IMG/VR virus record: IMGVR_UViG_3300028840_004184
Coordinates: 1 to 64,000 of that record
Strand: one strand, 5' to 3'
DNA from: a virus
Length of the DNA stretch: 64,000 nt
The translations under genes were made by a program, and so were the position numbers. The stretch's first letter is position 1; every line of letters begins with the position of its first letter. The notes beneath the pieces are model-generated. The model saw only the letters and a list, made by a program, of their open reading frames with translations, was not told the DNA's origin and did not search any database. This document shows, in pieces, positions 5,922-31,592 of this stretch.

Positions 5922-7385
5922 ATGACAACCGAAAGTAAAACTAGGAATTCTCCCGCTAGTATAGTAGAGGTCCATTATGGCGAATATCGTCTTATACCTG
6001 CTCCATTAATTCAATGGACCGAGGAGAGCGAGCATGACCCAGATACAAAAGGGCGTACCGTACAACGAACTAGATTGAAGCTCGATGGTACTTTTATTAT
6101 TTTACCAACCGGTACCTATGAAGGTATGTTCGAGATGCAGAAAGCGTTACGTAAAGCCTTTAGTGTTGATGGTCGAGAATTTCGCATCTTGGCTGGTGCT
6201 GGTAATACAACGTTGCCTTCTGGTGCTCCGATTGTCAGTGGCATGTTCCCGCTAGTTACTAATGTAGACATAGAGGCTGACTTGCAACACAATAGGGTTG
6301 ATTATACAGTCGATCTTGAGGTTGAAGCGGCGTCTACTAGTGGTCAGGCGTTTGAAAGTCTAACCGATACGTGGGACTTAACAGAAAATCCGGATGGTTT
6401 ATATCTAGATGTTGTGCATAATGTGTCGGCTAGAGGTATTAACACTTTAGCTTCTGGAACAAACGCTGTACATAATGCCATCAATGCCGTTTATCCACTT
6501 CTTGGTGTTGACAAGATGCCTTATTATTTGCCATATTATACGGAGCCAAATGCTAGCGGTGGCGGCACTGTACAAATGTATCATGTTGCCGTTAATCGTA
6601 CCGAGCAGATAGACACAAGGGGTGGTAATTATTCTGTTACGGAGAGTTTCATTTTAGCTTCTGGTACTGACCCATATGTGCATAGTGTCAACTCTAGTTT
6701 CGATGAAGACGAAGATGGCATAGCCACAGTTAAGGTTAATGGCAAGATACAGGGCTTGGGGCGTAGTAATTTTAATGGTGATAATGGCGGTATTGCTTTT
6801 GATAGAGCCCTTAATGGTTTTTCGACTGATATACAGCCTAACTTACCATCTACTGCTTCTGGTGTGTATTTAAGATACAAGAGTGGGACTTTATATACGA
6901 CCAATCATCTTGGTTTTTCAATCAGTGAAAACAGAACGCGTGGTACTATCAATTACAGTATTAGTTATAATGATGACCCAGCAGAGAATTTGCCTAGCGG
7001 TATTGTTGAGGCGACATCATCAGTACAGCGTACAGATGGTATACGTCTTTATGGTTCGCATCCTATTCCGTTTCGAAGATTAGGCAATGTTGTGCAGGAT
7101 ATTAAAACAACCACCGAGGGACAAATGGTTATTACTGCTTCAGCTAAAGCCGAGAATACTGGTGATGCTACAGCAGATACCAATAGAGCTATTTTACATG
7201 TACAAGATGAAATTAATAGATTAAAACCTAATTCTGCTGATTTTCAAACCCTTAGACCTGGTGCGATGACTGAGAATCATAGCGACAAGGAACTTACTGC
7301 TCAAGCTAGTGTGACCTATATTTTTACTATTGATCTGGCTAGTGTTTTTGAGGTGGATAGTGATATCGCGTTACACACGCTTTAG
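5922..7385 (+). CDS. Putative tail/baseplate structural protein
   Basis: 487 aa, beta-strand-rich, immediately after TMP; 9 Ser-Gly dipeptides. Confidence 0.6.
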   Translation: MTTESKTRNSPASIVEVHYGEYRLIPAPLIQWTEESEHDPDTKGRTVQRTRLKLDGTFIILPTGTYEGMFEMQKALRKAFSVDGREFRILAGAGNTTLPSGAPIVSGMFPLVTNVDIEADLQHNRVDYTVDLEVEAASTSGQAFESLTDTWDLTENPDGLYLDVVHNVSARGINTLASGTNAVHNAINAVYPLLGVDKMPYYLPYYTEPNASGGGTVQMYHVAVNRTEQIDTRGGNYSVTESFILASGTDPYVHSVNSSFDEDEDGIATVKVNGKIQGLGRSNFNGDNGGIAFDRALNGFSTDIQPNLPSTASGVYLRYKSGTLYTTNHLGFSISENRTRGTINYSISYNDDPAENLPSGIVEATSSVQRTDGIRLYGSHPIPFRRLGNVVQDIKTTTEGQMVITASAKAENTGDATADTNRAILHVQDEINRLKPNSADFQTLRPGAMTENHSDKELTAQASVTYIFTIDLASVFEVDSDIALHTL

Positions 7386-7393
7386 GAAGGATA

Positions 7394-7960
7394 TTGACGA
7401 TGGTTAATGTACCTATAGTGGAAATACGAGAATGGGAAACCACAAGCAACCCTTCTGGTATTCGTATATCTGATGACACGGATACGTTGAACGCTAGTGG
7501 GTTTTTAGGAAGCCGTGGTACCGCTGCTGGAGATACTTTGATTTACCAGCCCCTTAATACAACTGTGTCTGGGCAAGTTAGTGATACCAAGATGTTGGTT
7601 GGTCATGTTGAGTCATGGGGAGATGCTAGTGGTATTTCCAATATGTCTCTTTTTATGTCGTCCTTAAGTCATTTTAACGCAGGTAATTATCGATTTTTAT
7701 ATAGATTTGCAACACATTGGGTAAGTGGCTTACAGCTTACGGAGAATGATAGCGATTTACCAACGTCACAACCTGGTTCGCAGACTGTATTTAGTACACT
7801 TGGTAGCGGGATATTAAAGGACACTGGTTATTATGATGAAACGCAGGCGACACAATATATGTATGTGGCTACGTTTATAGACTCTGATGTCCCTATTGGT
7901 ACATACGGCGGTCCTGGAACAGGCGGATTTCGCTATCGTTTTCTTTTTGATTTTAGTTAA
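7394..7960 (+). CDS. Putative virion structural protein (paralog of next ORF)
   Basis: 188 aa (start may be the ATG at 7400). Shares SNPSG and the C-terminal QYxY...PxGxYG...G..R..L.D pattern with 7970-8557. Confidence 0.55.
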   Translation: MTMVNVPIVEIREWETTSNPSGIRISDDTDTLNASGFLGSRGTAAGDTLIYQPLNTTVSGQVSDTKMLVGHVESWGDASGISNMSLFMSSLSHFNAGNYRFLYRFATHWVSGLQLTENDSDLPTSQPGSQTVFSTLGSGILKDTGYYDETQATQYMYVATFIDSDVPIGTYGGPGTGGFRYRFLFDFS

Positions 7961-7969
7961 GAGGGTAAA

Positions 7970-8557
7970 ATGAACGAAATGCCAGGCTTAACATGGTATC
8001 AATTTGATACTACTGAGTTATCCAACCCTTCTGGTGAGCGTCATATTGAAGGAGGGGCGTTTGCATTTGAGCGAGCAATAGCTAGTGGGACGTGTGCAAG
8101 TGGTATGGCTTTTCCTCAAATAACTATGGAGGTGCCTGGATATGCTGATCATTATGTTTCGCGTCCTGTGGCGGTAATATTCCGCCTCAGCACAATTGCT
8201 AGTGGCAGTGGTATCGCGGACATGAGATTTTATCTTACGGAGGATGCTGCTTTGAGCGGTGATGGAAATGAACCGAAGGCTTTTGTCCAGATTGCCGTTA
8301 GTGGTCAGTGGCTTCCTAATTGTACTATGCCGAGTGGAGCTAATGACAAGATGTATAAAAATGTTATTCCTGCTGTAGCAAATGTTAGTGGCCAGGCAGG
8401 TCAATTCGCTATTGAGGGAACAAACGACAATTTTGTTTCACAGTATATTTATATGAATGTAGTTGTTCCTAGTCGTTATCCTGTAGGGGATTATGGTATT
8501 TGTGGTAGTGGTCAGTTGCGTTTTTGTCTTTTGTATGATTATCAATCTATAATTTAG
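7970..8557 (+). CDS. Putative virion structural protein, very Ser-Gly rich
   Basis: 195 aa; 10 of 16 serines are followed by Gly; paralog of the upstream ORF. Confidence 0.55.
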   Translation: MNEMPGLTWYQFDTTELSNPSGERHIEGGAFAFERAIASGTCASGMAFPQITMEVPGYADHYVSRPVAVIFRLSTIASGSGIADMRFYLTEDAALSGDGNEPKAFVQIAVSGQWLPNCTMPSGANDKMYKNVIPAVANVSGQAGQFAIEGTNDNFVSQYIYMNVVVPSRYPVGDYGICGSGQLRFCLLYDYQSII

Positions 8558-8570
8558 TGTATATATTATA
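8555..8570 (+). promoter_or_regulatory. Candidate phage (late) promoter motif TAGTGTATA-N3/4-TATA, copy 1
   Basis: Same motif recurs at gene boundaries 19468 and 63002. Confidence 0.4.
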
Positions 8571-8662
8571 TGCAACTCGGCTCTGCTCAAGAGCTACATC
8601 CTCCCAAAATGTCGTTTTTTTCAATTTATTCATTTCTGTGTAGGTTTGCAGGAGGTGCAAAG

Positions 8663-8851
8663 ATGGCTACTATTAATTCGACTTCTTCTACGAATAACGT
8701 CAACCAGATTTTGTATAGTTGGAGTACCGTAATGGAGTATTTCACTGATCGTAAGGCTGGTAGCGTTGCTGCTCGTGACAGCATTGTAAAGCTTCAGGGT
8801 CTTGGCGTTAGCGTGACTGTGACAAATCCTTTTACAAGCAAGTCTTCGTAA
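8663..8851 (+). CDS. Small 62-aa Ser/Thr-rich hypothetical protein
   Basis: Strong RBS GGAGGT at 8651-8656 supports ATG 8663 over 8570; followed by a terminator. Confidence 0.65.
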   Translation: MATINSTSSTNNVNQILYSWSTVMEYFTDRKAGSVAARDSIVKLQGLGVSVTVTNPFTSKSS

Positions 8852-8871
8852 TTGAGGGTAGGTAGTTAGGG

Positions 8872-8904
8872 GATGGTCGGGGATTTCCCCGACCATCTAT
8901 TTTT
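8872..8904 (+). terminator. Rho-independent terminator
   Basis: Perfect 11-bp stem GATGGTCGGGG/CCCCGACCATC, loop ATTT, followed by TATTTTT. Confidence 0.8.
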
Positions 8905-8917
8905 AAGGTACATAATT

Positions 8918-9364
8918 ATGATTAAGCCAACGATACACCATGATAATACAAGTGGGGTTATCAGGTTTAATACTCATTTGAATAAGCCCGTGATCTATAC
9001 AATGTGTAAAATGGAGCATGAGGCTTTTTTTATTAGTTATACGGCTGTAAATAATCTAGTTGTATTACCAGCACAAGTATCATCGGTTTGGCCTAAATAT
9101 TTGCAGGCATTTTTGTTTGGTGGTAAGAAAGTTAATGCTGATTATCGTGGCAACAGCTTTCATTGTGGTAAAGAGATATACGTTGCCGAGAATGTTGATG
9201 CGATTTTGCGAGGCGACGAGTATGAGTGGGTTGCTTTAGTAGATGTCCCTCATGATATTAGATGTGTGTATGTTAATTTAGATGTGTATGATGGTAAGAA
9301 GCATGTCAGGAGATTACAAATTGATACCTTTTTTGGGCGTAGCAGGGCAATAAATTATGAGTAG
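8918..9364 (+). CDS. Hypothetical protein
   Basis: ATG 8918 lies downstream of the terminator after AAGG; the ORF-track start 8873 lies inside the hairpin. Confidence 0.55.
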   Translation: MIKPTIHHDNTSGVIRFNTHLNKPVIYTMCKMEHEAFFISYTAVNNLVVLPAQVSSVWPKYLQAFLFGGKKVNADYRGNSFHCGKEIYVAENVDAILRGDEYEWVALVDVPHDIRCVYVNLDVYDGKKHVRRLQIDTFFGRSRAINYE

Positions 9365-12179
9365 CTTGTCAGTTTATGATAGTAATCTGTTAATGTTTTA
9401 TAGGTTTGATTCACCTAGTGGTGGTGCTATTCAGAATCGTGCATATTACCGTCCTAGAACTCAGCCCGATGGTTCTGATTTGAATACTGATTTGGCTTGG
9501 TACGATAATCATATTGCTGCTTCTCCTGGTATTCCTGGTTATCATGCGTGGAAGTTGGTAGACTTGACTGAACTTCATGCTTCGGGTTTGGGTGAATTAT
9601 ATTTACCTGGTCAGTGGGGAAGTCCTAGCGGTAATGCATTTACAGACAATGGTCATCATTTGGCTATATCTGGCTTGTTGTATGATCATACTATGACGAC
9701 GAGCATATCTCATCTTCACAAGCTGAGGTTAGAGGATGATAGTGACGCTAATTTAGATGGTACTTCAATTGCACAAGCTATGGCTTCAGGCGATGTTACT
9801 TTTGGTGGATGGGTCAGGTCTTTTACGTATAAGCCTTTGACATATATGTCTATGATTGGTTTTACTCAGGTTAATACTGGGTTTAGTTCGCCATGGCTGT
9901 TTTTAGAACAAAATAATACTGGTGATAGAGACTTTGAATTAAATTTGGTTAATGCTGGTACTTTGACAACTGGTGCTGGGAAACCCTCTGGTAGTACTGG
10001 TGGTCTTCCTGGAGATATGAATGTATATAATCCTCCGTGGGGAGGATGGAACCACGTCGCGTTTTCTCTAAAGTATGGTGGTGATGGTGGGGGCATATAT
10101 GCTAGATCTTATTTAAATGGTCATCAGGTTGAAACAAGTAATAATGCTAATTGGGACGCGAAGAGGTTTGTCGCAAGGTTTTTCTATGTTGGTGGCTTGA
10201 ATTCTACTACTAATAGTGTTGGACAGGGGTGTACTGCATGGAAAGACTTTTTCTTGTTCGATCGCGTTTTATCTTCTGGTGAAATTTATCATGTTTTTAA
10301 TAATAGTATAAGTGAAACGCCAATATTAACAAGCCAGGATAATGATTTGCTTTTGTGGTATCGGTTTGTTGAGCATAGTGGAGTACCTGTCAGAAGCTGG
10401 GCAGCAAATACGCCGAACCAGGATCTGAGTGGTGGGTCACTTGATCCTTATCTTTATTGGCATGATTATCCACCAGATCCGATTTATGGTTTATTTAGAG
10501 TAGAGGCCGATTTGCCTGAGGCGTCTGGGGCGTGGTTTCCTTCGCAGTGGAATGCTCAGTATCCTGATCAGGTTAGAGTTTGTGCTTCTGGTAATACTAC
10601 TAATCCGTTCCACGGCATCCGTGGAACAAATATAGATCACTCTGATATTAGTCATGCTATTTCTTCTGGTAGTTTTACCATGTCCATGTGGGTAAATCCT
10701 AGATATTATTCTTCATACAGGGTCCCATTTGTTTGGAGCAGGGGTGATGAAGACACTGTTTCTATTGGATTGAATTGTACGAGTGCATCGCAAGTTAGAA
10801 TTAGATATAACGATGGTACTGGTAGCGATCACTCTTTGTATAGCACTAGTAATCCGCCGTCTGGTTATTTTTGGAATCATGTGTGTGTTGTACATCCCAG
10901 TGGTGGGTTTGACGGTTCTTCCGATACAGCCAGACTGTATGTGAATGGTAGTTTGGCAGGCAGTACTACTGATCCAGATTTCAATAGTCTTGCTGTGCCT
11001 TATTTGGTCAGTTTTTTCAATTACCATGATGAATGGTCAGATTCTCAATTTTTGGGTGGTATTAAGGATTTTACGCTTTGGAAGAGGACACTGGAGCCAC
11101 ACGAGATCCGCTCTTTGTTTGGTCGCGGTATTGATTTAATTTCAAGTAAGGCGAGTGGGACGATCGGCGGACATACGCTTGGTCGTACTAGGACATCTGG
11201 TGTATTCGGTGGATATATTGATGCGTGGGCTTATCAGGCTAGCGGTGTTTTTGGTGGTCACACGCTTGGTAGATGGCGTGGATCTGGTGTGCATGGCGGA
11301 TATGTTTTTTGTGGCAATAGGGTGTCTGGTGTACATGGTGGATTTATTTATTGTAGTGGTATAGGCTCTGGTGTCCATGGTGGATATTGTTTTGGTATTT
11401 TAAAAGCTTCTGGTGCTATAGGTGGTCGTACTTTTTCTGTGGTCAAGACTAGCGGAGCGTGTGGTGGTTTTGTTCATTGTGGTTTACAGGGGTCTGGTGT
11501 ATTTGACTCGTCTATGAGGGTCAGAGCAATTACGTTTTCTGATGTTGATGCTTTAGTAGAGGTTAAAAATACAATTAATAAGGATTTTGATGCCGAAATA
11601 GAAGTTTACAAAAACGAAAGACCTCCATTTGTAGCCATAGAGTATCCCCCACCAGAGATTGTTAGTGGTATACCACCTAGCAGTGTGTGGTTTGTAGGTA
11701 GTGGTGTCGCCGTGGACGGTAAGCAGATAGACAGTGCTAAGTATCTTTTCGGTGATTTAACATCTCACGCCAATGGTATTCCGTCTGGCAGCGACCAATA
11801 TGTTTCTACGTATACTTATGCTAATAGTGGTCTTTATATAGCTACATTGCGGGTTGTAGATAATAATGGGTTGGTTGGCAGCGACTCTGTTATTGTTGAT
11901 CTTGCTAGTGGCGTTCCGTTACCAGATGTTGAATTAACAGCTAGTCCACGTAGTGGAAACGCCCCACTATCTGTTGATTTTGATTATAGTGTTACTAGTG
12001 TACCCAATGGCGTAACTGTTACATCAGCTATTTTATATTTTGGTAATGGACAGTCAACAGTTAACCCAGATACTACCTATGTGTACAGAGAACCTGGGGT
12101 TTACACTCCTATATTGTGTATTTTGGATAGTAGGGGTATCATTACGTGTGATTCATTAACGATTGGGGTTAATAATTAA
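9357..12179 (+). CDS. Tail fibre/adhesin-like protein: two LamG (ConA-like) domains, 14-aa SGxxGG repeats, C-terminal PKD-like domains
   Basis: Duplicated LamG motifs (WNHVAF/WNHVCV, YLNG/YVNG, DRVLSSGEI/KRTLEPHEI). PKD-type motifs (YTYANSGLYIATLRVVDNNG, SGNAPLSVDF, FGNG...YVYREPGVY). Confidence 0.7.
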   Translation: MSSLSVYDSNLLMFYRFDSPSGGAIQNRAYYRPRTQPDGSDLNTDLAWYDNHIAASPGIPGYHAWKLVDLTELHASGLGELYLPGQWGSPSGNAFTDNGHHLAISGLLYDHTMTTSISHLHKLRLEDDSDANLDGTSIAQAMASGDVTFGGWVRSFTYKPLTYMSMIGFTQVNTGFSSPWLFLEQNNTGDRDFELNLVNAGTLTTGAGKPSGSTGGLPGDMNVYNPPWGGWNHVAFSLKYGGDGGGIYARSYLNGHQVETSNNANWDAKRFVARFFYVGGLNSTTNSVGQGCTAWKDFFLFDRVLSSGEIYHVFNNSISETPILTSQDNDLLLWYRFVEHSGVPVRSWAANTPNQDLSGGSLDPYLYWHDYPPDPIYGLFRVEADLPEASGAWFPSQWNAQYPDQVRVCASGNTTNPFHGIRGTNIDHSDISHAISSGSFTMSMWVNPRYYSSYRVPFVWSRGDEDTVSIGLNCTSASQVRIRYNDGTGSDHSLYSTSNPPSGYFWNHVCVVHPSGGFDGSSDTARLYVNGSLAGSTTDPDFNSLAVPYLVSFFNYHDEWSDSQFLGGIKDFTLWKRTLEPHEIRSLFGRGIDLISSKASGTIGGHTLGRTRTSGVFGGYIDAWAYQASGVFGGHTLGRWRGSGVHGGYVFCGNRVSGVHGGFIYCSGIGSGVHGGYCFGILKASGAIGGRTFSVVKTSGACGGFVHCGLQGSGVFDSSMRVRAITFSDVDALVEVKNTINKDFDAEIEVYKNERPPFVAIEYPPPEIVSGIPPSSVWFVGSGVAVDGKQIDSAKYLFGDLTSHANGIPSGSDQYVSTYTYANSGLYIATLRVVDNNGLVGSDSVIVDLASGVPLPDVELTASPRSGNAPLSVDFDYSVTSVPNGVTVTSAILYFGNGQSTVNPDTTYVYREPGVYTPILCILDSRGIITCDSLTIGVNN
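11151..11507 (+). repeat. In-frame tandem repeat, about 9 units of ~42 nt (14 aa, SGxxGG...)
   Basis: SGTIGGHTLGRTRT/SGVFGGYIDAWAYQA/SGVFGGHTLGRWRG/SGVHGGYVFCGNRV/SGVHGGFIYCSGIG/SGVHGGYCFGILKA/SGAIGGRTFSVVKT/SGACGGFVHCGLQG/SGVF. Confidence 0.85.
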
Positions 12180-15100
12180 TGGCTAATAATACTATATTAG
12201 TTAGCGGCGTTGGTGTGCCGGATTTTGCTATACCGTTTCCTAGCGGTCAGATTGATGCTGGTTATCCAGGATCTAATCTGTATGCATTTTTAGCCAGTGC
12301 AAATGCTAATTTTGGTTTTAATTTAACGCCTAATACTCTGGAAATGAATTTTATGCCTGTGCCTCGTGATGAGACTATATATCATGGTGCTAGTGGAAAT
12401 TTACCAACCGTCGGTATGTTTCTTGAGATGTTTATTGAGGATTTTTATTTTCGTGGTAGAATCAATCATGCTGATTATAATAATAGTGATGCTGGTACAA
12501 TTATACGTATTACTCTAGAAGATACAAGACGTTCTTTAGACAAAATAAAAATACACACAGAGGATCTTGGCGATAATGTACCTAGCGGTGTTGTGTCTAT
12601 AGGCAGAGCCTACCGTATTTTGCATGGTTTGACTGATGATGATGGTGCTGAGGTTGATGGGCTTGTTTTTGAATATAACGAGATTATGGATCGTGGGGCT
12701 ACATATAGTCAAATAATCGAAGCCTTACAGCTAGCTATTAATGAAAGACAAATTAATTTATCAATCAACCAAGTGCCTCCATTAAGTAAGCTTGAAGCTA
12801 ATATTGGTGGTACTATTGAGGCCTTGCGATTTAAATTTGATATGACAAGTTTAACAGAGGCCATAACGACCGTGTTGCAAGACTGTGCATACGATTGGTA
12901 TTGGAATATGAATACCAATAGTGTCTCTTTGATAAATCGTAAAGCTGCATTTGAATTGACCGAATCTAATTTAATGAGCCTAATTAATAAAGTGAGTGGT
13001 TATAGCGATGTGTCAGAGGGGACTAAGCGACTTGGTTTTGGCGAGGACGCCGTTCAAGAACCAACAAGGTTCCGTTTATTGGGTGGGCGACAGCAGGGTT
13101 TTATTAATTCGGAGTTATTGAGTCCTGTTGATGGTTTGGATACGTCGTCTCTTGATAATAATGTGACTTTTGTCCCGGCGTGGTCTGATATCAGTGTTGG
13201 ATTTTACGATGCTGATGGTTTTTATAGAACGTATACTCCCACAGATAAAGAATTACAAATGGCTCTCGCTGGTATTGAGCACTGGACTTATTTCAAAATC
13301 TATCAGTCTGAGCCAGCACCAGATGGGTTTGGCTTAGCATCAGATGTTGGGTCTATTGCAGCACAGCATTCGACTTTTCAAAGCAGATTTGATCCTTCTG
13401 AAACTTTGGCTGATATGGTTGCCGGTTCTGATGCAGATAATAGTTTGCGTATTATTAATAATCGTAGAGATGAAGAACATAATTGGGTGAATGATTTTTT
13501 TAATAGAGTAAATAATCATGCCCAGAGGCATTTCGGTAGATCATATGTTGCTGAGGGTATTGCCTATAATGAATCATCAGGTTTATTTAAGCCAATAGAT
13601 GCTGCCTGGTGCAACATAGAGAATCAAATAGAGGGACAAAGCGTTGGTGTCAGCGGATCTTTTGGTCCGTTTGTAGATGATTATGAGATCAATCGTTTAT
13701 TTGGTCCAGTTGCACCGTTTTTAACCGATGATTTTCGCGTATCGGCACACTGTGTACTCCCACCAGATACTCGTTATGGAGCGGATGGAGACCAGGCACC
13801 GGCTAGTTTTTCTGAGTGGACAGAAGACGCACCACCATTTAATCCATCTGGCAATGGCTATCATTACATACCGTGTTCTATTTCTGTGGTTGGAAGAAGA
13901 GTCAAAAATCCTCGTAGTGATGACTTGTATAGTTTTGAAGATTATCCTGATGGGACGCTATGGGTGCAATTGCCTACTATTGCTGGTTCGAAAAGCGAGG
14001 ATAGCGTGTTAGCTAATTTATCCACTTTAATCGAATTGAGCAGGAGTGCAAGTAGTCAGGGATTATTTGATGTTGCTAATCCAGCACAATTAATAGAGCC
14101 ATACAGTTCTTTAAGTGGTGTTGCTATTCCCGTTGAGTCACGTATACGCTATGGACAAAATTTCCCATCCCAGTGGGTTTTGGGCGACGAGCATTATCAG
14201 CGTGGTGAAGACGTTGTTGTTGATGATGCATTTGTTCCTTGGGGCTTTTATCCTGTTGGTAATGATACTTCGTTGGAGGTTATGACCAATAGGGCTGTGA
14301 GAAAAGTACAAGGACGCTTTGTTGACAATATATTTTCAAGATATGCTGATATTAGTCAGGTTGGATTGCCGACAGTTGGTTTTGATAGTTTCGCGGACCA
14401 GGGTGCCAGTGCTTCCGGAGTTTATGGTGAAAGATCCCATGGTGTTACAGAGCTTAATATTGTTATTGGACAGACTGGGTATGAAACAAGATATAAAATT
14501 GCGTCATATTTTGCTACATTTGGAAGAGAGGCCCCACTTGGTGAAAGACAAAGGACACAAGTTAATGGTATTTTACATCCGATAGATTATACTCTTTTAA
14601 CATTAACTAATCCTATCCCTGGTGATCCATCCTCACCAGCGGTAGCTGACTCTTTATATAGTATACCGCCTTCAGTAGGTGATAAGAAAACAGCACGTAG
14701 AGTAACAATCACTGAGGTAAATGATGTCTTTACGTTAGTCTACAAGAATAATCCAGCACTAGGTCCTATACAGGAACGTTATCGTGGTAAGACTGAAACT
14801 GGTGATTATGATGCACCTAATCCTAATCGAGGATCACATATCGATTATACAAATGGTGCTATATGCGTGGATGGTTTTTTGAATTACAGTGATAGGGCTA
14901 TGTATCATACGGATGATTACGAGCTTGCTACAGGCAATGTTGTCTATCGTTATTTCACTGGTGGTCGTAAATTCGGTGCTGGGAATATTGTCGATGTAAA
15001 AGAATACCTTGGTTATGATGGTACATATCATAGATATAACGTAGAGATGGTTCAGGGAGCGGGTCGTGCCTTAATTAATACTCCTCTCCTTAATGGTACA

Positions 15101-15439
15101 CTGAATATTAATGATAAAACTACGCTTGTTGCTGATGGCGGTGCTTCGGTTCAGCCGGGCAATGCACCGAGTGGTGTTTATCTTAATAGTGCCGGTGGCG
15201 GAGGAGGCACGCCGGTCATTATCCAGAGTATTACTAGTGCTGGTACATTGGACGCTTATGCTTATGCTCAACCGGTTAATGGCGATTTGGACCCGGATGC
15301 TACGCGTAGTGCTGTAAGTGGAGTACCATTCCCATATCCTCCTTATGCCCAAACTGGTGACATGGGGCTTTGGTCAACCACGTCAGATGGGAGAAATGTT
15401 ATTTATGTAAGCAGGTTACCGATTAGGAGTATCGACTAA
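12179..15439 (+). CDS. Large tail/baseplate protein
   Basis: 1086 aa, acidic and beta-rich, in the tail module, translationally coupled (TAATG). Confidence 0.6.
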   Translation: MANNTILVSGVGVPDFAIPFPSGQIDAGYPGSNLYAFLASANANFGFNLTPNTLEMNFMPVPRDETIYHGASGNLPTVGMFLEMFIEDFYFRGRINHADYNNSDAGTIIRITLEDTRRSLDKIKIHTEDLGDNVPSGVVSIGRAYRILHGLTDDDGAEVDGLVFEYNEIMDRGATYSQIIEALQLAINERQINLSINQVPPLSKLEANIGGTIEALRFKFDMTSLTEAITTVLQDCAYDWYWNMNTNSVSLINRKAAFELTESNLMSLINKVSGYSDVSEGTKRLGFGEDAVQEPTRFRLLGGRQQGFINSELLSPVDGLDTSSLDNNVTFVPAWSDISVGFYDADGFYRTYTPTDKELQMALAGIEHWTYFKIYQSEPAPDGFGLASDVGSIAAQHSTFQSRFDPSETLADMVAGSDADNSLRIINNRRDEEHNWVNDFFNRVNNHAQRHFGRSYVAEGIAYNESSGLFKPIDAAWCNIENQIEGQSVGVSGSFGPFVDDYEINRLFGPVAPFLTDDFRVSAHCVLPPDTRYGADGDQAPASFSEWTEDAPPFNPSGNGYHYIPCSISVVGRRVKNPRSDDLYSFEDYPDGTLWVQLPTIAGSKSEDSVLANLSTLIELSRSASSQGLFDVANPAQLIEPYSSLSGVAIPVESRIRYGQNFPSQWVLGDEHYQRGEDVVVDDAFVPWGFYPVGNDTSLEVMTNRAVRKVQGRFVDNIFSRYADISQVGLPTVGFDSFADQGASASGVYGERSHGVTELNIVIGQTGYETRYKIASYFATFGREAPLGERQRTQVNGILHPIDYTLLTLTNPIPGDPSSPAVADSLYSIPPSVGDKKTARRVTITEVNDVFTLVYKNNPALGPIQERYRGKTETGDYDAPNPNRGSHIDYTNGAICVDGFLNYSDRAMYHTDDYELATGNVVYRYFTGGRKFGAGNIVDVKEYLGYDGTYHRYNVEMVQGAGRALINTPLLNGTLNINDKTTLVADGGASVQPGNAPSGVYLNSAGGGGGTPVIIQSITSAGTLDAYAYAQPVNGDLDPDATRSAVSGVPFPYPPYAQTGDMGLWSTTSDGRNVIYVSRLPIRSID

Positions 15440-15440
15440 G

Positions 15441-18400
15441 ATGACTATGGCTTCAGGACAGAGGCCGTTTGATTATGACAGACAGCCATTTCCATTCATT
15501 ATTCCAGAAAACACTGGTAATACCAGTGGTGCGATGAATCCATTCCCAGAATATGGGGAGCCTTATTTTATTTACGCTCATCACCTTGGTCAAGCCTGGT
15601 TTGCTAATTTAGCTCAGTTAAGGAGCTTGCCAGATGGTCATCCTGATCAAAATGTATATCCTGCAATAGACAGAAATTGTCGTGGTATTATCCATGTACC
15701 GTCCGGTCAGATAGATCATCCCCAGCTAATAGCCCCACATATTTTCGAACCAGACCCAAGTGGTAATGCGTGGTTGTCGATGACAGCTAGGGACGATACC
15801 GGCGATGTTCTTTTGCAAAATGTTTCAGCCCATATTCAAGTCGATACTTATGGCCATTATATTTCTTGGTTAAGGAGTATGATGAACAATATTTTTGCTG
15901 CTCAGTCGCTTGATTATGATAATAAAAGTATGGGCGAGATGCGTTATGATTATTTATTGGCTTATTTTCCTCGTAGTAGTGGTTTGTATTTTGACCCTAA
16001 TGCGACTGAATTTTTAGACATTAGTTTGGCTGAAGTTCAATATAACCCCTATCCTCGTATAGCTGGTGATCCTCCATTCCCCTATGTTGGTGATTATTAT
16101 TGGACGCGTTATGCTGGGCAGTGGGGCGGAGACGTTAGTGCAGATGATGAAGATTATAGATTTGTTATTAACGGTTATTTGTATTATGATAATTTATTGA
16201 GTACGTCTGATTATGGTATAAATTATAACATTTATAGGAATTATTTTTCTAGATATTCTTGGAGGGGGTCTCCAGCTAGATCGTCACCCCTAGATGATGA
16301 TGATTATATAGCTCTTTCTAGGGAGCTACTTACTAAGTTTGGAACTATCGATGTTTTTGGTCCTGTTTTTCCTTGTTGTCAATCTTTCGATGGTAGCTTG
16401 ACTTCTCCGCATAGCGGTGATGATAGTAAATATGAGGAACCTCCGTCTCAATGGTTTGTCGATGGTGCGGCCATGGGCAAGGAGCCTGGGCAGTATACTA
16501 TTGAGCAGTCTGATACTATATATAATAAATTCAGTGATGTTATATATCCTCTGGAAGCCGACATGGATGATTTTGATGACTTTATGGCGTTTTATTACTG
16601 GAATTATCCTTATCTGTCTGCTGGGTGGGTGTATGGTGGTTCTCCAAGAAACGTATCTTTGGCTGAGCATGCTTCTTTGCATGCACTGAATGATGCTGAG
16701 CCGTTGTTGTATGGATATATTCCTGGTGATATGCTTATAGGCTATATGGCATGGTGTAGTCAAGATAATGCCAATAGTATTAGAATAGATGGAGAAGGTC
16801 TTATTCCTAATTTGACACGGATGCGTATTTGTGATTTGTCAAGTCGTGATTACGATAAATGGGTATCTACGTCTGGTCTTGTGTATCATGCTACTGGTGA
16901 TTATATTGTGCAGTCTGGTAGTAGAGAAGTCCATAATAGCGTAGACGCAAGAAATGTAAACGTTAGTTCACACTGGGGACGTAACCCAGCAACGAAAAAT
17001 GGTTTCCCATCGTATTCTGGTGAGCCAGTTCGTTATATTCTTGATGAAGATTTCACTGCTGTACAAACAAGCGGCTATGTACCGAGTATTAAAGATCGTA
17101 GGGCATGGTTTCCAATGCCTGATTGTAATAACCCTAGTGCCGCGAGTGGTGAACAGGAGTTGATATTTATAGAACCTATCTTCGCTGAACGTAGGAACGT
17201 TAAGAAAATATTGGTACAGAATGATACAAGTTATAGTAGTCGTGGTGTTTGTAATGCCGCTGCTCCTTCGGGGTTTTTGAGTGTATGGCCGTCTAATCCG
17301 TTGTTCCAAAACGGTAGCGGCGTTGGTTATCATGTGATGGATAAAGGCATTTGGATGCGTAAACATCCAGCAAGTTGTGGGATGACGTTGGTGTCTCCAT
17401 ATAATGGTCAGGAGTTGTTATTTAAGAGAGCGGAAGATAAGATACAAACATGGGGGACTCAGAATGATACATGGCGTATAGAGGTTAGACCTGGGAATGA
17501 CTTTCATTATCCTGAATATTATAATACAGCAGTTAATGCGTGGCGGAAAAATATGTTTTTTCGTGATCCTTATGCTATTAAAGAGGAAGTGACGCCGCAA
17601 GAGACCCATGCACAAGTCCCACAGTTGGCTTTACCGCATAATACATATTTGAGAGAATTCACTGGTGAGAGATCCTATGTAGCCTCTTGGTATAGGAACA
17701 AGGAGGAGCAAGTAGCTCATACTGACGGTACTTATACTATTTTTAATTTAGCAGCACAAGTGTCGTCATTTGATGATTATAAGATTTCGCGAGAGGATTA
17801 CTTGGAGCCAGATAATTACAATTTTTGGTGGCATGATGAGGTTGATCCAACTAATCCGCCTGATCTTCCTGTAATGTCTGACTGGGGATCTACTCGCATT
17901 TATTATCCTATCGATAGTGGTTATTGGCATAAAACAAGGGGCGGGAATGCTATTCCACCTAGCTTTGTTCCGCAGGGGGGTGTCGGCTTAGATCAAACGC
18001 CTGATATATATTTATTACACCCTCACGCCAAATATTCTCCTTTAAGATCACAGAGTAGTTTAATTGGTACTTTTACTGCTGGAAGAACATCCACGATTAA
18101 TGATGATTTTTATGGTCTAGAGGGTGATGATGCTGGGAAAAATAGTTTGACGTGTGATGTTGATGTCTATATAGCAAATAAGCCCTATTTGCAATTTGAT
18201 ATTCCTGGGTTGACTATACAGCGTAGCGGTGAAGCTACGATAGATATGTCTCATAGTATGCTTGAGGGTATTTTAAAAGAAGGAACCCTGAAGCCAGGGT
18301 TCAGTATTACACAGAGACGTGAGTGGGTGTTGCGTACTACCACCTATCGTTGGTTTGATGGAGAGGAAATCAATAACGAGGAAGTTGTAGATGTTTATCA

Positions 18401-19490
18401 ACATCAAGTTGCTTTTGATGGTTTTTTAATTATGCGACTTGAAATGTATGGTTTACAAGAAAGCTCTAAGGGGGGTATAGTAGAGGGATGGGGAAGGCTA
18501 TATGAAACGGCGTCTGCTGGTGTAACCGAGACTATAAATCCGGATAAAGATTGGCCTAATATGTCAACTGATTATGTCAGACCGGAAAATCCAGGAGAAA
18601 CCCAAGAAGAAGATAGAGTCAAGTATTCTTTATATCATGTTGATTATTGGTCTTCGAGTCAATATGGATGGGGGTCAGTTCCTAGATATAGACCATATCA
18701 AGCAGATCATATTGGTCAGGACCAGTATGATTCTATGAACGGTTCGCGTTTTTTCAGAGTGTGGTTTGATCCCAATGACGATTCTATTGTTATTCATTGC
18801 GAGGACGACTTGCATGATCTGAAGAGATATGGGCTATTGCTTGGTAATAGTCTTTATAGATATGATGTTGTGAATAGAGAAAGTGGTGGTATCGCGAATG
18901 TATTGCATTCCACCAGAGAAGATGAAGACTTTCTCCCCGGCATGAATCCAGGCGATCTGCCTGGGTGGGACCCGTATGTACCAGGACCACCAGGGGCTGC
19001 TACTAGGCGTGCTATGAATCAGGATTATCAAGATGCCAAGAAATGTGTTATGAGTTTTACGTGGGTTGAAGATGAATTAGTCGCTGCTGTGGAAATGTAT
19101 GATCAGCAATATGGTTCTACTATTGTTAATCATGGCAGGAAATGCGAGATCGCTACACTAGATCCTGATACTGGTATTTTTGACAATGAAAGAGCCAATA
19201 TGATTTTCGCTATGCCAGGCAGGATGTTTACTAAACAAAGACCTTTGCTCGAAGACAGGGCTGTGACTACCCCTGGTACTGCGTTTGTTGAGTTGCCAAT
19301 TTGGGATTATATTGATCCATATCAGTACGAACATTATCGTTACGGTGGGTGGCTTAACGCATTTGCTGGATATGGTGATATTGTTATAGAAGACGATCCT
19401 GATTATGGGGTTACTCCATTTTCAATTTTTGTTTATTCGTCAGAAGTTAGCGATATGTGGCCAAAGATAGTGTATACTAATATATCATAG
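15441..19490 (+). CDS. Large putative tail/receptor-binding structural protein
   Basis: 1349 aa, rich in Tyr/Trp/Pro/Asp, in the tail module; no family recognised. Confidence 0.5.
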   Translation: MTMASGQRPFDYDRQPFPFIIPENTGNTSGAMNPFPEYGEPYFIYAHHLGQAWFANLAQLRSLPDGHPDQNVYPAIDRNCRGIIHVPSGQIDHPQLIAPHIFEPDPSGNAWLSMTARDDTGDVLLQNVSAHIQVDTYGHYISWLRSMMNNIFAAQSLDYDNKSMGEMRYDYLLAYFPRSSGLYFDPNATEFLDISLAEVQYNPYPRIAGDPPFPYVGDYYWTRYAGQWGGDVSADDEDYRFVINGYLYYDNLLSTSDYGINYNIYRNYFSRYSWRGSPARSSPLDDDDYIALSRELLTKFGTIDVFGPVFPCCQSFDGSLTSPHSGDDSKYEEPPSQWFVDGAAMGKEPGQYTIEQSDTIYNKFSDVIYPLEADMDDFDDFMAFYYWNYPYLSAGWVYGGSPRNVSLAEHASLHALNDAEPLLYGYIPGDMLIGYMAWCSQDNANSIRIDGEGLIPNLTRMRICDLSSRDYDKWVSTSGLVYHATGDYIVQSGSREVHNSVDARNVNVSSHWGRNPATKNGFPSYSGEPVRYILDEDFTAVQTSGYVPSIKDRRAWFPMPDCNNPSAASGEQELIFIEPIFAERRNVKKILVQNDTSYSSRGVCNAAAPSGFLSVWPSNPLFQNGSGVGYHVMDKGIWMRKHPASCGMTLVSPYNGQELLFKRAEDKIQTWGTQNDTWRIEVRPGNDFHYPEYYNTAVNAWRKNMFFRDPYAIKEEVTPQETHAQVPQLALPHNTYLREFTGERSYVASWYRNKEEQVAHTDGTYTIFNLAAQVSSFDDYKISREDYLEPDNYNFWWHDEVDPTNPPDLPVMSDWGSTRIYYPIDSGYWHKTRGGNAIPPSFVPQGGVGLDQTPDIYLLHPHAKYSPLRSQSSLIGTFTAGRTSTINDDFYGLEGDDAGKNSLTCDVDVYIANKPYLQFDIPGLTIQRSGEATIDMSHSMLEGILKEGTLKPGFSITQRREWVLRTTTYRWFDGEEINNEEVVDVYQHQVAFDGFLIMRLEMYGLQESSKGGIVEGWGRLYETASAGVTETINPDKDWPNMSTDYVRPENPGETQEEDRVKYSLYHVDYWSSSQYGWGSVPRYRPYQADHIGQDQYDSMNGSRFFRVWFDPNDDSIVIHCEDDLHDLKRYGLLLGNSLYRYDVVNRESGGIANVLHSTREDEDFLPGMNPGDLPGWDPYVPGPPGAATRRAMNQDYQDAKKCVMSFTWVEDELVAAVEMYDQQYGSTIVNHGRKCEIATLDPDTGIFDNERANMIFAMPGRMFTKQRPLLEDRAVTTPGTAFVELPIWDYIDPYQYEHYRYGGWLNAFAGYGDIVIEDDPDYGVTPFSIFVYSSEVSDMWPKIVYTNIS
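19468..19484 (+). promoter_or_regulatory. Candidate promoter motif, copy 2
   Basis: TAGTGTATACTAATATA about 35 nt upstream of the ATG at 19520. Confidence 0.4.
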
Positions 19491-19519
19491 ATTTTATTTT
19501 CGATATAAGGAGGTTGAAG

Positions 19520-20260
19520 ATGTCTGTAACTTTTATGGCTGCTTCTGGTGCTGAAAGTTCTATGTATCACGATGAAGCTAAGCAGATTATATGGGAAATG
19601 ACACCAGCGGTAGGAGGGAACACAGGCCCTTGTCGTTTAGGCTTTTACGGTATCGCTGGGCATGGGGATTCAGTACTTTTGCTTACATGGAGTAGTTCTT
19701 CCTATATCGTGGATGTTAATGGTGATCAATATGGTGGAGGTGGCAGCGGCGTTTTCGTCCCCGTGCAGTACGTAAGTAGTTCGCAGGCAGCACTTTCTGG
19801 CATAAACGGCGGTGCAGGCTGGTCGTGGAATCTTAATCAGGACCATCGCGTTCCATGTGAAAGTGGCACAGTATTAATCCGGTTTATTGAACCTACTGGT
19901 GCAGCGGTACAAACATTAAATTGTACGTTCAGGTCTGTGCTTTTGACCGTAGACGACGTTGTAGAGAACGATACCGTCGGTGCTGATAGTTCACAGATTC
20001 AGATTTATGCTTTTGAAACCTCACGCATGAGTTTTATGACATGGCAGTGGGGACAAAAGGGGATGGAAGGTGATTCTGGTTTAACTGGTGATACAGCATG
20101 GACTAGGATAGATGATGGTGGTGCCAGCAACCAGCTTGCTGTAGATGACCATCAGTGGGAGGCTGTGGCCCACGATTATGTGGTTTGCGTCAGCGTATCC
20201 CCACAACAAACTGGATCTATTACTAGGTTTGGTTTTATGTTCAGAGTGGACTATGTTTAA
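19520..20260 (+). CDS. Putative virion structural protein
   Basis: AAGGAGG RBS at 19507-19513 favours ATG 19520; Gly/Ser-rich and beta-type; 5 SG motifs. Confidence 0.5.
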   Translation: MSVTFMAASGAESSMYHDEAKQIIWEMTPAVGGNTGPCRLGFYGIAGHGDSVLLLTWSSSSYIVDVNGDQYGGGGSGVFVPVQYVSSSQAALSGINGGAGWSWNLNQDHRVPCESGTVLIRFIEPTGAAVQTLNCTFRSVLLTVDDVVENDTVGADSSQIQIYAFETSRMSFMTWQWGQKGMEGDSGLTGDTAWTRIDDGGASNQLAVDDHQWEAVAHDYVVCVSVSPQQTGSITRFGFMFRVDYV

Positions 20261-29648: not shown

Positions 29649-30563
29649 ATGATACCAGATATTACTTATTTTGTTTTAGATTATAATCCATCGCATAGCG
29701 AGAAAGAAGCTGATTGGCTTCGTGAGTGTTTGATATCTTTATATGATAATACGGACGATTCTTTGTCTAAGGTTGTTTATGTGCTCAGTCAGGGGAACGG
29801 GACAAAACAGGAAGAATACCTTGGGAGACTTTCTCGTTTTCTTGATTTTCATTTGTTATGTATGAAAGATAATCTCGGCATCAGCCGGGGCATTAATCAT
29901 TGTGTCCAAATGTCACGTAGTCCAGTTGTAGCCTTGGTGACCAGCGATACTGTATTAACCAAGGGAATGGATATCGACCTGTGGTGTAAACTTAATGATG
30001 GTGACAGCCGTTTGATGCATGCGACACCCCTTACCCAGAAAAGTGATATACCTTATCAGCAGTATGTACCCGAAGAAGATTTCGGTGCTGAGTCTGTAGT
30101 TAAGATGCCTGGTAAAGATATTTTCTGTATAGCATATGAACTAACAGTTAATTTTTGGAACCGAAGATTATTTGATCAAATAGGCTTCTTCGATGAACGA
30201 TGGAAGGCTTGTTATGAGAATCTTGATTTTTCGCTTCGTTCTTATATACGTGGATATGATAGTATAGTAAGTGGTAGCTCTTTCGTGTGGCACAGGCATG
30301 GGACATGTTATCAGAACGATTTATTGAGACATGCCTATGATGGTTATTTAGACTACTTTATGTCGGGAGGGTTTAATCATACTCCGTTAAGAGAAATGTG
30401 GGACTTGAAGTGGCCTGGTATTAATAATTTTATTGACATATATAAACCTGTTCGGAGTATTGGCATTAATGATGATGATGTGGTAAGATTAAGAAGTTTC
30501 TTACGTCGTGAATTTGAACATAATATTTATTTACCCTATATACAGAAAAGAGTCAAATATTAA
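29649..30563 (+). CDS. Glycosyltransferase family 2
   Basis: NLGISRGIN, VALVTSD, FDQIGFFDE, YENLDFSLR, VWH. Confidence 0.85.
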   Translation: MIPDITYFVLDYNPSHSEKEADWLRECLISLYDNTDDSLSKVVYVLSQGNGTKQEEYLGRLSRFLDFHLLCMKDNLGISRGINHCVQMSRSPVVALVTSDTVLTKGMDIDLWCKLNDGDSRLMHATPLTQKSDIPYQQYVPEEDFGAESVVKMPGKDIFCIAYELTVNFWNRRLFDQIGFFDERWKACYENLDFSLRSYIRGYDSIVSGSSFVWHRHGTCYQNDLLRHAYDGYLDYFMSGGFNHTPLREMWDLKWPGINNFIDIYKPVRSIGINDDDVVRLRSFLRREFEHNIYLPYIQKRVKY

Positions 30564-31069
30564 TGAATGATGCAAACAGGGACTGGATTGTTAAGCAACA
30601 CAGAGAAAAGCTACAAGGTAGGATATTGGAAATTGGGTCGTTTATTGTTCCAGGACAAGAAGAAATATCTATGCGTAAAGCTATTGAGTCTTTAGGTTAC
30701 CCGTTTGTGGGTATAGATATGCGTCAGGGACCAGGCGTAGATATTGTTGCAGATGCCAAGAATATGCGTAGTATAATAGCTGATGATGAGATAGATACTA
30801 TAATTTGCCTTGATACACTAGAGCATGTTGATTGGCCTAGAGACCTTATACAAGAATTGTATCGTGTCCAGAAGCCCGGAGGATATTTTTTCTTGGCTAC
30901 TGTTATGGACTTCCCCATTCATGATTACCCTAGTGACTATTGGAGATTTACTCCACAATGTTTGAAAATGTTGCTTAAGTATGCTGGTTATGAAGTGCTT
31001 GGGGTAGAGGGATGTGGTAGGCAAGATTTTCCTGGTGTAGTAAGAGCTATAGGGAGGAAAAATGCCTAG
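30563..31069 (+). CDS. Class I SAM-dependent methyltransferase
   Basis: ILEIGS, GIDMRQGPGVDIV.D, TLEHV, RV.KPGG, HDYPSDYWRFT. Confidence 0.88.
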   Translation: MNDANRDWIVKQHREKLQGRILEIGSFIVPGQEEISMRKAIESLGYPFVGIDMRQGPGVDIVADAKNMRSIIADDEIDTIICLDTLEHVDWPRDLIQELYRVQKPGGYFFLATVMDFPIHDYPSDYWRFTPQCLKMLLKYAGYEVLGVEGCGRQDFPGVVRAIGRKNA

Positions 31070-31592
31070 GTGGTGGTTCCAAGAGAAACGTAATAAGTAC
31101 GCAGACCGGTCTTTCACTAATCATATATCGGTAGGCTGTAGACCGCACTTGAGTGATATACCTAACTGGGAATTGCAAACTTTCGATTATTGTGATGAAC
31201 TGATTATTGTGGAAGCCTGCCGAGATCACGAAGTTTTACTTAGAGAGGGGTGCTCTAGGTTTCGTAAGCCTGTGAAAATTTTTATTGAAAAAATTGAAAA
31301 AATGCTTGACTTTTTCCCAGAATGTGGTATATTTTCATGGCATCATGGACCCGAACATAGTTGGGATTGGCAGCATGTGTTGTCAGAGATGGAAAAGAAG
31401 GCAAAACTTATCATGATTTCATGCCCGTTAGGACATGTCGTTCCTGGCCACATTCACGGCCAAAATCAATGTGACGAACATCCAGATGGACTTCGTATAG
31501 AAAGAGATTACTTTGACCAAAATGGTTACGAGGTTTTTATGTGGCGAGAGAAATGGGGGATTGAAATCAATGCCATTAAGGAGAATCCGTAA
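31062..31592 (+). CDS. Hypothetical protein, possibly a divergent methyltransferase
   Basis: ISVGC and WHHGPEH lie at positions resembling MTase motifs; weak evidence. Confidence 0.35.
   Translation: MPRWWFQEKRNKYADRSFTNHISVGCRPHLSDIPNWELQTFDYCDELIIVEACRDHEVLLREGCSRFRKPVKIFIEKIEKMLDFFPECGIFSWHHGPEHSWDWQHVLSEMEKKAKLIMISCPLGHVVPGHIHGQNQCDEHPDGLRIERDYFDQNGYEVFMWREKWGIEINAIKENP

What the first reader, a model, noticed from the sequence alone, without database searches (positions are those of the whole stretch)
5922..20260. Directional Ser-Gly enrichment restricted to external structural proteins
Hand counts of SG: 9/487 aa (5922), 6/188 (7394), 10/195 (7970; 10 of its 16 Ser), 30/940 (9357), 12/1086 (12179), 16/1349 (15441), 5/246 (19520). 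That is about 2 per 100 aa overall. Comparators are much lower: about 6/1713 in the internal tape measure, about 5/1082 in DnaE and about 2/631 in NrdJ. The reverse dipeptide GS is rarer (1 vs 9 in 5922; 2 vs 10 in 7970; about 15 vs 30 in 9357), so composition alone may not explain it. The -1 residue is usually small (A, P, V, S, G). SG sites stay at equivalent positions in diverged duplicates (LamG1 vs LamG2; 7394 vs 7970), and PSGQID occurs near the N-termini of both 12179 and 15441.
Basis: seen in the sequence. Interest (0 to 1): 0.8.

Follow-up and report, generated by a model that had tools for sequence, protein, structure and literature searches.

The report
Ser-Gly excess in phage tail proteins
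The tail-tip, baseplate and fibre proteins of this uncultured 170-kb phage and its relatives carry more than twice as many Ser-Gly pairs as chance predicts, at conserved serines, which I read as most likely sugar-attachment sites for the phage's own enzymes, though no chemistry shows this and a purely structural role is not excluded.

Summary
The seven proteins hold 88 SG where shuffling predicts 38.8 (z = 8.8). SG is the top outlier of all 400 dipeptides. GS, TG, NG and DG sit at expectation, and the rest of the window shows no excess.

- **Level:** the effect is at protein level; only in-frame hexamers are enriched.
- **Conservation:** Ser in SG is kept in 76% of sites, against 44% for other Ser.
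- **Clade:** 13 related metagenomic loci show SG O/E of 2.64.
- **Corrections:** the signal is tail-specific, not "external". The capsid protein has 0 SG. Two fibre genes beyond 20260 are equally enriched.
- **New result:** a more distant subclade enriches Thr-Gly instead, and three relatives enrich neither.

Hydroxyl-specific, direction-specific and clade-shifting enrichment across unrelated folds suggests recognition by a trans-acting enzyme. The leading candidate is O-glycosylation by the phage's soluble kit of about 11 glycosyltransferases (confidence 0.45). No GT tracks the signal, and a structural loop habit remains possible (0.33). This scan has noted the same phenomenon in at least seven other phage genomes.

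The parts
5922..7385 (+). Tail-tip hub or Dit-like protein (487 aa) built of tandem tail-tube-fold domains; 9 SG vs 3.1 expected, 1 GS
   Evidence: AF2 model with pLDDT 89. Foldseek matches lambda gpV, SPP1 Dit, Mu/VgrG hubs and CIS baseplates. The family of 375 homologues has SG O/E of 2.7 near and 1.65 far.
7394..7960 (+). 188-aa beta-sandwich tail protein, paralogue of 7970; 6 SG vs 2.5
7970..8557 (+). 195-aa beta-sandwich tail protein; 10 of its 16 Ser precede Gly (10 SG vs 1.6, z = 7)
   Evidence: Seven of the ten sites are conserved in eight orthologues. AF2 model with pLDDT 86.
9357..12179 (+). 940-aa protein with two LamG domains, a tandem repeat and a PKD domain; 30 SG vs 12.7
   Evidence: Pfam.
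11154..11501 (+). Nine tandem 14-residue units (SG-v-x-G-G-x8) inside 9357, one SG per unit
   Evidence: Spacing of SG sites at residues 600-713.
12179..15439 (+). 1086-aa orphan tail protein; 12 SG vs 8.2 (not significant alone); 9 of 12 SG sites kept as SG in orthologues, with all 12 Gly kept
15441..19490 (+). 1349-aa orphan tail protein; 16 SG vs 7.9 (z = 3.3)
19514..20260 (+). 248-aa protein; 5 SG vs 3.1 (not significant alone)
778..5919 (+). Tape measure protein, the internal negative comparator: 6 SG vs 8.3, sites not conserved
   Evidence: Pfam PF10145.
63990..64000 (+). Start of a fibre-like gene that runs to genome 65480 (496 aa, 22 SG vs 9.5). Its paralogue at genome 67016-69190 has 21 vs 6.7. 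Both lie outside the finding.
29649..55546 (+). Candidate trans-acting kit, with the link to SG inferred and not shown: about 11 GT1/GT4 and GT2 glycosyltransferases, 4 methyltransferases, a sulfotransferase-like protein, an epimerase and a GDP-mannose 4,6-dehydratase. DnaE, SSB and other genes are interspersed.
   Evidence: Pfam. None of the GT ORFs has a TM-like segment. No PF02397, PF00303 or PF01075 in the complete genome.

Best explanation
Ser-Gly is a short motif, here [P/A]-S-G-[I/L/V], kept by selection on the amino acids in the distal-tail, baseplate and fibre proteins of a clade of large uncultured phages. It is most likely a recognition site for a lineage-specific enzyme that acts on the serine hydroxyl. 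The leading candidate is cytoplasmic O-glycosylation of tail proteins, before or during assembly, by the phage's own soluble glycosyltransferase kit. Shown: the excess, its direction, its protein-level origin, its conservation, its restriction to tail proteins, its absence from model phages, and its shift to Thr-Gly or to nothing in relatives. Inferred: that an enzyme reads the motif, that the modification is a glycan, and which enzyme does it.
For: (1) SG is the only outlier among 400 dipeptides (z = 8.8). In the pooled clade, S is the only enriched residue before G (2.61; all others at or below 1.04), and G is the only enriched residue after S. (2) The effect is at protein level. In-frame hexamers are 88 vs 39.2, while off-frame counts are 12 vs 9.3 and 26 vs 32.6. 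About 20% of conserved SG serines have switched between AGY and TCN codons. (3) SG serines are under stronger purifying selection: 62/82 kept vs 119/268 for other Ser (p = 6e-7), and Gly 74/82 vs 193/290. (4) The excess arose independently in unrelated proteins. Only 7394~7970 and 63990~67016 are paralogous, and the folds differ: tube-fold hub, beta-sandwich, LamG, PKD, repeat fibres. (5) The same kinds of protein in T4, lambda, P2, SPP1 and Che8 lack it, at roughly 157 observed vs 140 expected. (6) Only hydroxyl residues are involved. A related subclade enriches TG (O/E 2.70) plus SG (1.85), with GT at 0.77 and GS at 1.02. In the pooled SG and TG clades DG and NG stay at or below expectation. 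Three relatives with homologous hubs show no [S/T]-G excess. (7) SG sites have no single geometry in two confident models, which fits a linear motif better than one turn type. (8) The complete genome encodes about 11 glycosyltransferases with no TM-like segment, plus sugar-nucleotide and sugar-tailoring enzymes. It has no PF02397-type lipid-carrier priming transferase (other priming families were not searched) and no dCMP-hydroxymethylase homologue. (9) Precedent: TibC/AAH glycosylate Ser but not Thr in the cytoplasm, and TibA Ser-313 lies in N-S-G-G (PMC4358343).
Against: There is no chemical evidence of any modification. GT genes occur throughout the wider group whatever the signal. The conserved GT of about 540-645 aa is orthologous in genomes with SG excess, with TG excess and with neither, so no enzyme is tied to the motif. 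The capsid protein, the usual target in glycosylated mycobacteriophages, has no SG. The phage's cytoplasmic enzymes and the tape-measure side show no SG avoidance. The -1 P/A, Gly and following hydrophobic residue also fit a type I turn with a G1 bulge leading into a strand. Gly is kept at 90%, and repeat units place SG at a fixed position, as a structural element would. The GT kit could instead serve host-envelope or DNA modification.
Confidence: 0.45

Rival explanations
1. Purely structural loop habit. In this lineage [P/A]-S-G-hydrophobic, or hydrophobic-T-G in the sister subclade, is the preferred way to end a loop or strand and start the next beta-strand in beta-rich oligomeric tail proteins. 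No modification is involved.
For: The flanks match type I turn plus G1 bulge preferences (preferences from my own knowledge). Sixteen of 19 modelled sites touch non-regular structure, four sit exactly at a strand C-terminus and about five lie within two residues of a strand edge. Gly is kept at 90%. The excess of about 50 sites roughly equals the 60 conserved sites, so these are old fixed positions rather than shifting ones. Tandem units carry one SG each. Distant members of the hub family still show O/E of 1.65.
Against: Asp and Asn normally substitute for Ser and Thr in such turns, yet they are not enriched in this phage or in the pooled SG and TG clades. Homologous or analogous folds in five model phages lack the excess. 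The same hub family uses SG in one clade, TG in another and neither in a third. Other beta-rich proteins of the same phage, such as the capsid, lack it. Site geometry is heterogeneous and edge enrichment is not significant, though n = 19.
Confidence: 0.33
2. The motif is read by some other trans-acting factor, for example a different O-linked modification (phosphorylation, acylation), a tail-assembly chaperone or a protease.
For: It fits the same lineage-specific, module-specific, fold-independent and hydroxyl-specific pattern. No GT tracks the signal. Many ORFs in the genome have no assigned function.
Against: No kinase, acyltransferase or dedicated chaperone was identified in the window. Proteolysis at about 90 conserved sites is implausible. 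The only large enzyme set without an assigned acceptor is the glycan kit.
Confidence: 0.1
3. Composition, repeat or DNA-level artefact: S/G-rich linkers, inherited repeats, or an over-represented nucleotide word.
For: About 10 of 88 sites come from one 14-residue tandem array. The two fibre genes outside the finding are internally repetitive.
Against: Per-protein and codon shuffles fail to reproduce the excess. GS is not enriched, so these are not S/G linkers. Off-frame hexamers are at expectation. 9357 without its repeat still has 20 vs 8.8. Most of the proteins are unrelated to each other.
Confidence: 0.02

Closest known systems
Bacterial autotransporter heptosyltransferases (TibC/AAH) acting on TibA and AIDA-I (PMC4358343)
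   Same: A cytoplasmic GT-B enzyme modifies many serines, not threonines, in loops of a beta-rich repetitive surface protein. One mapped TibA site is N-S-G-G. The modification precedes export or assembly.
   Different: This complete genome has no GT9 or BAHT homologue. The substrates here are many unrelated tail proteins rather than one beta-helix. A sister subclade prefers Thr. Nothing here has been shown chemically.
Mycobacteriophage virion glycosylation (Freeman et al. 2023, known here only as cited in PMC12619734)
   Same: Phage-encoded glycosyltransferases decorate virion proteins in the cytoplasm.
   Different: That system puts glycans on the C-termini of the capsid and tail-tube subunits. 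Here the capsid has no SG and the signal lies in distal tail and fibre proteins. The Che8 proteins tested (minor tail proteins, capsid and tail tube) show no SG excess (53 vs 42.7).
Type I beta-turn followed by a glycine G1 bulge (3:5 hairpin loop); textbook structural motif, from my own knowledge
   Same: Pro or Ala, then a small polar residue, then Gly, then a hydrophobic strand. Many sites lie at loop or strand edges.
   Different: Asp and Asn, the commonest residues at that turn position, are not enriched. The positions are heterogeneous. The excess is specific to one lineage and to tail proteins.
Virus-encoded cytoplasmic glycosylation machineries of chloroviruses and giant viruses (from my own knowledge)
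   Same: A large virus-encoded set of soluble glycosyltransferases and sugar-nucleotide enzymes that does not rely on host secretory glycosylation.
   Different: Those systems modify capsid or fibril proteins, with N-linked atypical sequons in chloroviruses. No Ser-Gly motif is known for them.

Membership tests
BAHT (TibC/AAH)-type serine hyperglycosylation | GT9-like ADP-heptose-dependent heptosyltransferase | tested here: not met
   PF01075 is absent from the complete 170-kb genome. The Pfam scans found only GT1/GT4 and GT2 types.
BAHT (TibC/AAH)-type serine hyperglycosylation | Serine, not threonine, as acceptor | tested here: inconclusive
   Statistically, SG is enriched and TG is not in this phage, but a related subclade enriches TG. 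No chemistry was done.
BAHT (TibC/AAH)-type serine hyperglycosylation | Acceptor serines in loops of a repetitive beta-helix | tested here: inconclusive
   The 14-residue array in 9357 and the fibre repeats carry one SG per unit, but most sites are in non-repetitive folds.
BAHT (TibC/AAH)-type serine hyperglycosylation | Sugar covalently bound to the serine | not testable with these tools
   This needs mass spectrometry.
Mycobacteriophage-type virion glycosylation | Phage-encoded glycosyltransferases | tested here: met
   About 11 GT ORFs in the window.
Mycobacteriophage-type virion glycosylation | Targets are the C-termini of capsid and tail-tube subunits | tested here: not met
   The capsid protein has 0 SG in 343 aa. 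The signal is in distal tail and fibre proteins.
Type I turn plus G1 bulge structural motif | Pro/Ala, then a small polar residue, then Gly, followed by a strand | tested here: met
   At -1, P is 3.9x and A is 2.3x; after Gly, I/L/V are 2-2.4x.
Type I turn plus G1 bulge structural motif | Asp/Asn interchangeable with Ser/Thr before the Gly | tested here: not met
   DG O/E is 0.94 and NG 0.90 in the SG clade. In the TG clade, all xG other than T and S are at or below 0.95.
Type I turn plus G1 bulge structural motif | Uniform position in hairpin loops | tested here: inconclusive
   Nineteen sites in two models: 4 at a strand C-terminus, about 5 within two residues of a strand edge, the rest in long loops and 1 in a helix. 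Edge enrichment has p = 0.09-0.43.
Eukaryotic xylosyltransferase Ser-Gly (glycosaminoglycan) sequon | Acidic residues flanking Ser-Gly (from my own knowledge) | tested here: not met
   D, E, R and K are depleted at -3, -1, +2 and +3.

The most novel reading that the evidence does not exclude
[S/T]-Gly is the sequon of a previously unknown phage-encoded cytoplasmic protein O-glycosylation system. It coats the adsorption apparatus (hub, baseplate, fibres) but not the capsid, across a widespread clade of large uncultured aquatic phages. Acceptor preference has shifted between Ser and Thr in different subclades. The glycan is built from GDP-sugar-derived deoxyhexoses and is methylated or sulfated.
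Probability: 0.35. Interest if true: 0.85.

Novelty: new variant of a known kind. Interest (0 to 1): 0.62.

Why it matters
If the motif marks modification sites, phage receptor-binding machinery would carry a programmed glycan coat written in a two-residue code that can be read directly from sequence. It would also give a simple sequence statistic for finding glycosylated virions in metagenomes. If the motif is only structural, it is still an unusually strong lineage-specific rule for building tail proteins. It would be useful as a marker of this clade, and a caution against reading motif enrichment as evidence of modification.

Tried and rejected
- **DNA word or codon-pair cause:** rejected. 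Only in-frame hexamers are enriched.
- **S/G-rich linker composition:** rejected. GS is at expectation.
- **Generic beta-turn or beta-rich tail explanation:** rejected by five model phages.
- **Single SG-rich ancestral domain:** rejected by all-vs-all blastp.
- **Directional SG avoidance on the tape-measure side of relatives:** not supported once duplicate loci were removed. SG is 0.87 and GS 0.90.
- **Strand-edge localisation:** a trend only, not significant.
- **GT co-occurrence as a test:** uninformative. GTs are present in 12 of 14 related records searched, including relatives without the signal. The core long GT is orthologous in all classes.
- **Classification of the GTs:** generic GT4 and GT2 types, far below curated cut-offs. 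Their nearest clusters are virus-only.
- **Fold-inherent test with LamG homologues outside the clade:** failed. Only clade members were retrieved, and no PDB sequence match was found.
- **Cultured relatives:** none for the tail block, hub, fibre or core GT. The portal-like protein has only remote Bacillus phage matches.
- **Solvent accessibility:** could not be computed, because model coordinates are not exposed.
- **Literature:** the Freeman et al. paper is not held. A search found no report linking Ser-Gly to phage tails.
Full report
**What the window is.** The window is the first 64 kb of a complete 170,410-bp phage genome with direct terminal repeats. No cultured relative exists. The morphogenesis module runs from about 155 kb across the genome end into the window. 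It comprises a portal-like protein, the major capsid protein and neck and tail-shaft genes. The tape measure follows at 778-5919 (PF10145), and then the block named in the finding.

**The proteins in the block.**
- 5922-7385 folds confidently (pLDDT 89) into tandem tail-tube-fold domains. These match lambda gpV, SPP1 Dit, Mu/VgrG hubs and contractile-injection baseplates, so this is a tail-tip hub or Dit-like protein.
- 7394 and 7970 are paralogous beta-sandwich proteins of about 190 aa.
- 9357 has two LamG domains, a 14-residue tandem array and a PKD domain.
- 12179, 15441 and 19514 are orphans.

**The observation.** With per-protein shuffling the seven proteins hold 88 SG against 38.8 expected (z = 8.8). 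SG ranks first of 400 dipeptides, and the runner-up has z = 3.8. GS (38 vs 39.2), TG, NG, DG, AG and GG are at expectation. The other 52 ORFs of the window have SG 65 vs 63.3. The 14-residue array contributes about 10 sites, and without it 9357 still has 20 vs 8.8. Flanks are non-random: A and P at -1, and V, then Q, I and L, after Gly. Pooled over 1,114 sites from this window plus twelve non-redundant close relatives, the motif is [P/A]-S-G-[I/L/V]-hydrophobic in an uncharged context. S is the only enriched residue before G (2.61; all others at or below 1.04), and G is the only enriched residue after S.

**The level of selection.** Codon shuffling gives 39.2 in-frame SG hexamers against 88 observed. 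The same hexamers in the other two frames are at expectation (12 vs 9.3, and 26 vs 32.6). Serine codons at SG sites are mixed, and 18-20% of conserved SG serines have switched between the AGY and TCN families in orthologues. So the constraint acts on the amino acids.

**Conservation.** Compared with syntenic relatives at 41-65% identity (L003, L005), Ser in SG is kept at 62 of 82 sites. Other Ser is kept at 119 of 268 (p = 6e-7). Gly in SG is kept at 74 of 82, against 193 of 290 for other Gly (p = 1e-5). SG sites in the tape measure are not kept. The orthologous blocks carry the same excess (92 vs 36.4, and 88 vs 35.2). In the 7970 family, seven of ten sites are conserved in all eight orthologues. 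Three of them persist in the 25%-identical paralogue.

**Extent within the genome.** Two fibre-like genes just beyond the window are as enriched as the block: 63990-65480 with 22 vs 9.5, and 67016-69190 with 21 vs 6.7. They are built of repeat units that each hold one SG. Neck and tail-shaft genes are mildly enriched (25 vs 13.1). The capsid protein has 0 SG in 343 aa, the portal-like protein has 1 in 805, and the terminase-to-capsid group has 9 vs 9.1. The signal is therefore tail-specific rather than 'external'.

**Not generic.** Baseplate, hub, fibre and spike proteins of T4 and lambda give 83 vs 72.3. P2 gives 10 vs 10.4, SPP1 gives 11 vs 14.5, and the glycosylated mycobacteriophage Che8 gives 53 vs 42.7.

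**Not one ancestral domain.** All-vs-all blastp links only 7394 with 7970, and 63990 with 67016. The other proteins are unrelated and have different folds.

**Clade-wide pattern, and shifts within it.**
- The hub family has 375 homologues. SG O/E falls from 2.7 in near members to 1.65 in distant ones, with GS near 1.0 throughout.
- Of 28 related IMG/VR loci, thirteen non-redundant close ones give SG 1106 vs 418.5 (O/E 2.64) in the genes from the hub onward. GS there is 1.06, and the upstream side gives 0.87.
- A full dipeptide scan of the more distant loci gave a new result. In L030, L031, L033, L034, L037 and L040 the top or near-top dipeptide is Thr-Gly (z = 4 to 12), with SG second.
- Pooled for that subclade, TG O/E is 2.70 and SG 1.85. 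Every other xG is at or below 0.95, GT is 0.77, GS is 1.02, and upstream genes are flat.
- The flanks differ there: -1 and -2 are hydrophobic instead of P or A.
- L028, L029 and L039 show no [S/T]-G excess (DG is modestly raised in L028). The shared element is a hydroxyl residue directly before Gly. Its identity and its presence vary between subclades that share homologous tail proteins.

**Structure.** In the two models, 19 SG sites have no single geometry. Four serines are the last residue of a strand, about five sites lie within two residues of a strand edge, most of the rest are in longer loops, and one is inside a helix. Enrichment at strand edges is not significant.

**The sugar kit.**
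- The window encodes about 11 GT1/GT4 and GT2 glycosyltransferases, four methyltransferases, a sulfotransferase-like protein, an epimerase and a GDP-mannose 4,6-dehydratase.
- None of the GT ORFs has a transmembrane-like segment.
- The complete genome lacks a PF02397 priming transferase, a thymidylate-synthase or dCMP-hydroxymethylase homologue, and a GT9 enzyme. This suits a soluble acceptor.
- GTs are present in 12 of the 14 related records searched, including records with no [S/T]-G excess.
- The conserved long GT (window 38334-40199) is orthologous in SG, TG and 'none' genomes.
- The GTs classify only as generic GT4 and GT2 types. No enzyme is tied to the motif.

**Interpretation.** A purely structural habit explains the flanks, the high conservation of Gly and the one-per-repeat placement. 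It does not explain several other findings:
- Asp and Asn are not enriched.
- The same folds elsewhere lack the excess.
- One fold family uses SG, TG or neither, depending on the clade.
- Unrelated tail proteins converge on the motif while the capsid and the enzymes of the same phage do not.

A trans-acting enzyme that reads a hydroxyl residue before Gly explains all of these. It has a precedent in the cytoplasmic, serine-specific autotransporter heptosyltransferases, one of whose mapped sites is N-S-G-G (PMC4358343). I therefore favour a modification site, most likely O-glycosylation, at 0.45. A structural habit stands at 0.33, and another trans-acting factor at 0.10. Every step from 'motif under selection' to 'glycan on serine' is inference.

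**Prior knowledge.** The held literature yielded no report of Ser-Gly enrichment in phage tails. Phage virion glycosylation is known from mycobacteriophages, at capsid and tail-tube C-termini (as cited in PMC12619734). This scan's own notes record the same phenomenon in at least seven other uncultured large phage genomes, one of them with Ser/Thr-Gly. Those are unchecked notes and were not used as evidence.

Noticed in passing
L030, L031/L032, L033, L034, L037/L038, L040 (IMG/VR relatives), genes downstream of the hub homologue: A sister subclade enriches Thr-Gly (O/E 2.70) more than Ser-Gly (1.85), with hydrophobic rather than Pro/Ala residues at -1. L040 also has a strong TP/PT excess (z = 10-12), suggesting Thr-Pro linkers.
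   Followed up: partly
L003:9020-10000 and L004:9014-9994: A 326-aa LAGLIDADG_3 plus AP2 homing-endonuclease gene sits between the 7394 and 7970 orthologues in two relatives. It is absent from the window.
   Followed up: no
window 38334-40199: A 621-aa GT1 protein with a C-terminal DUF4214 domain is a core gene of the wider phage group. Orthologues of 540-645 aa occur in all 11 relatives examined. Its nearest clusters are virus-only.
   Followed up: partly
window 33933-37406: The DnaE ORF called from the GTG at 33933 begins with a hydrophobic stretch.
   Followed up: no
window 25408-26631 and 27692-28264: A nucleoside 2-deoxyribosyltransferase-like protein and a dNMP kinase lie next to each other, which may hint at nucleotide or DNA modification. 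A ClpP-family protease is encoded among the replication genes.
   Followed up: no
genome 65499-66959 (beyond the window): A 486-aa ORF with an N-terminal TM-like segment lies between the two SG-rich fibre genes and is not itself SG-enriched.
   Followed up: no
window 32993-33832 and 30563-32996: A sulfotransferase-like protein and three methyltransferases, one of FkbM type, sit beside the glycosyltransferases. This suggests a tailored (methylated or sulfated) glycan.
   Followed up: no
L002:7465-8121 (genome 162465-163121): The 218-aa protein just after the capsid gene has both SG (5 vs 1.9) and GS (6 vs 1.8) in excess. That is an S/G-rich composition, unlike the directional signal in the tail proteins.
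   Followed up: no
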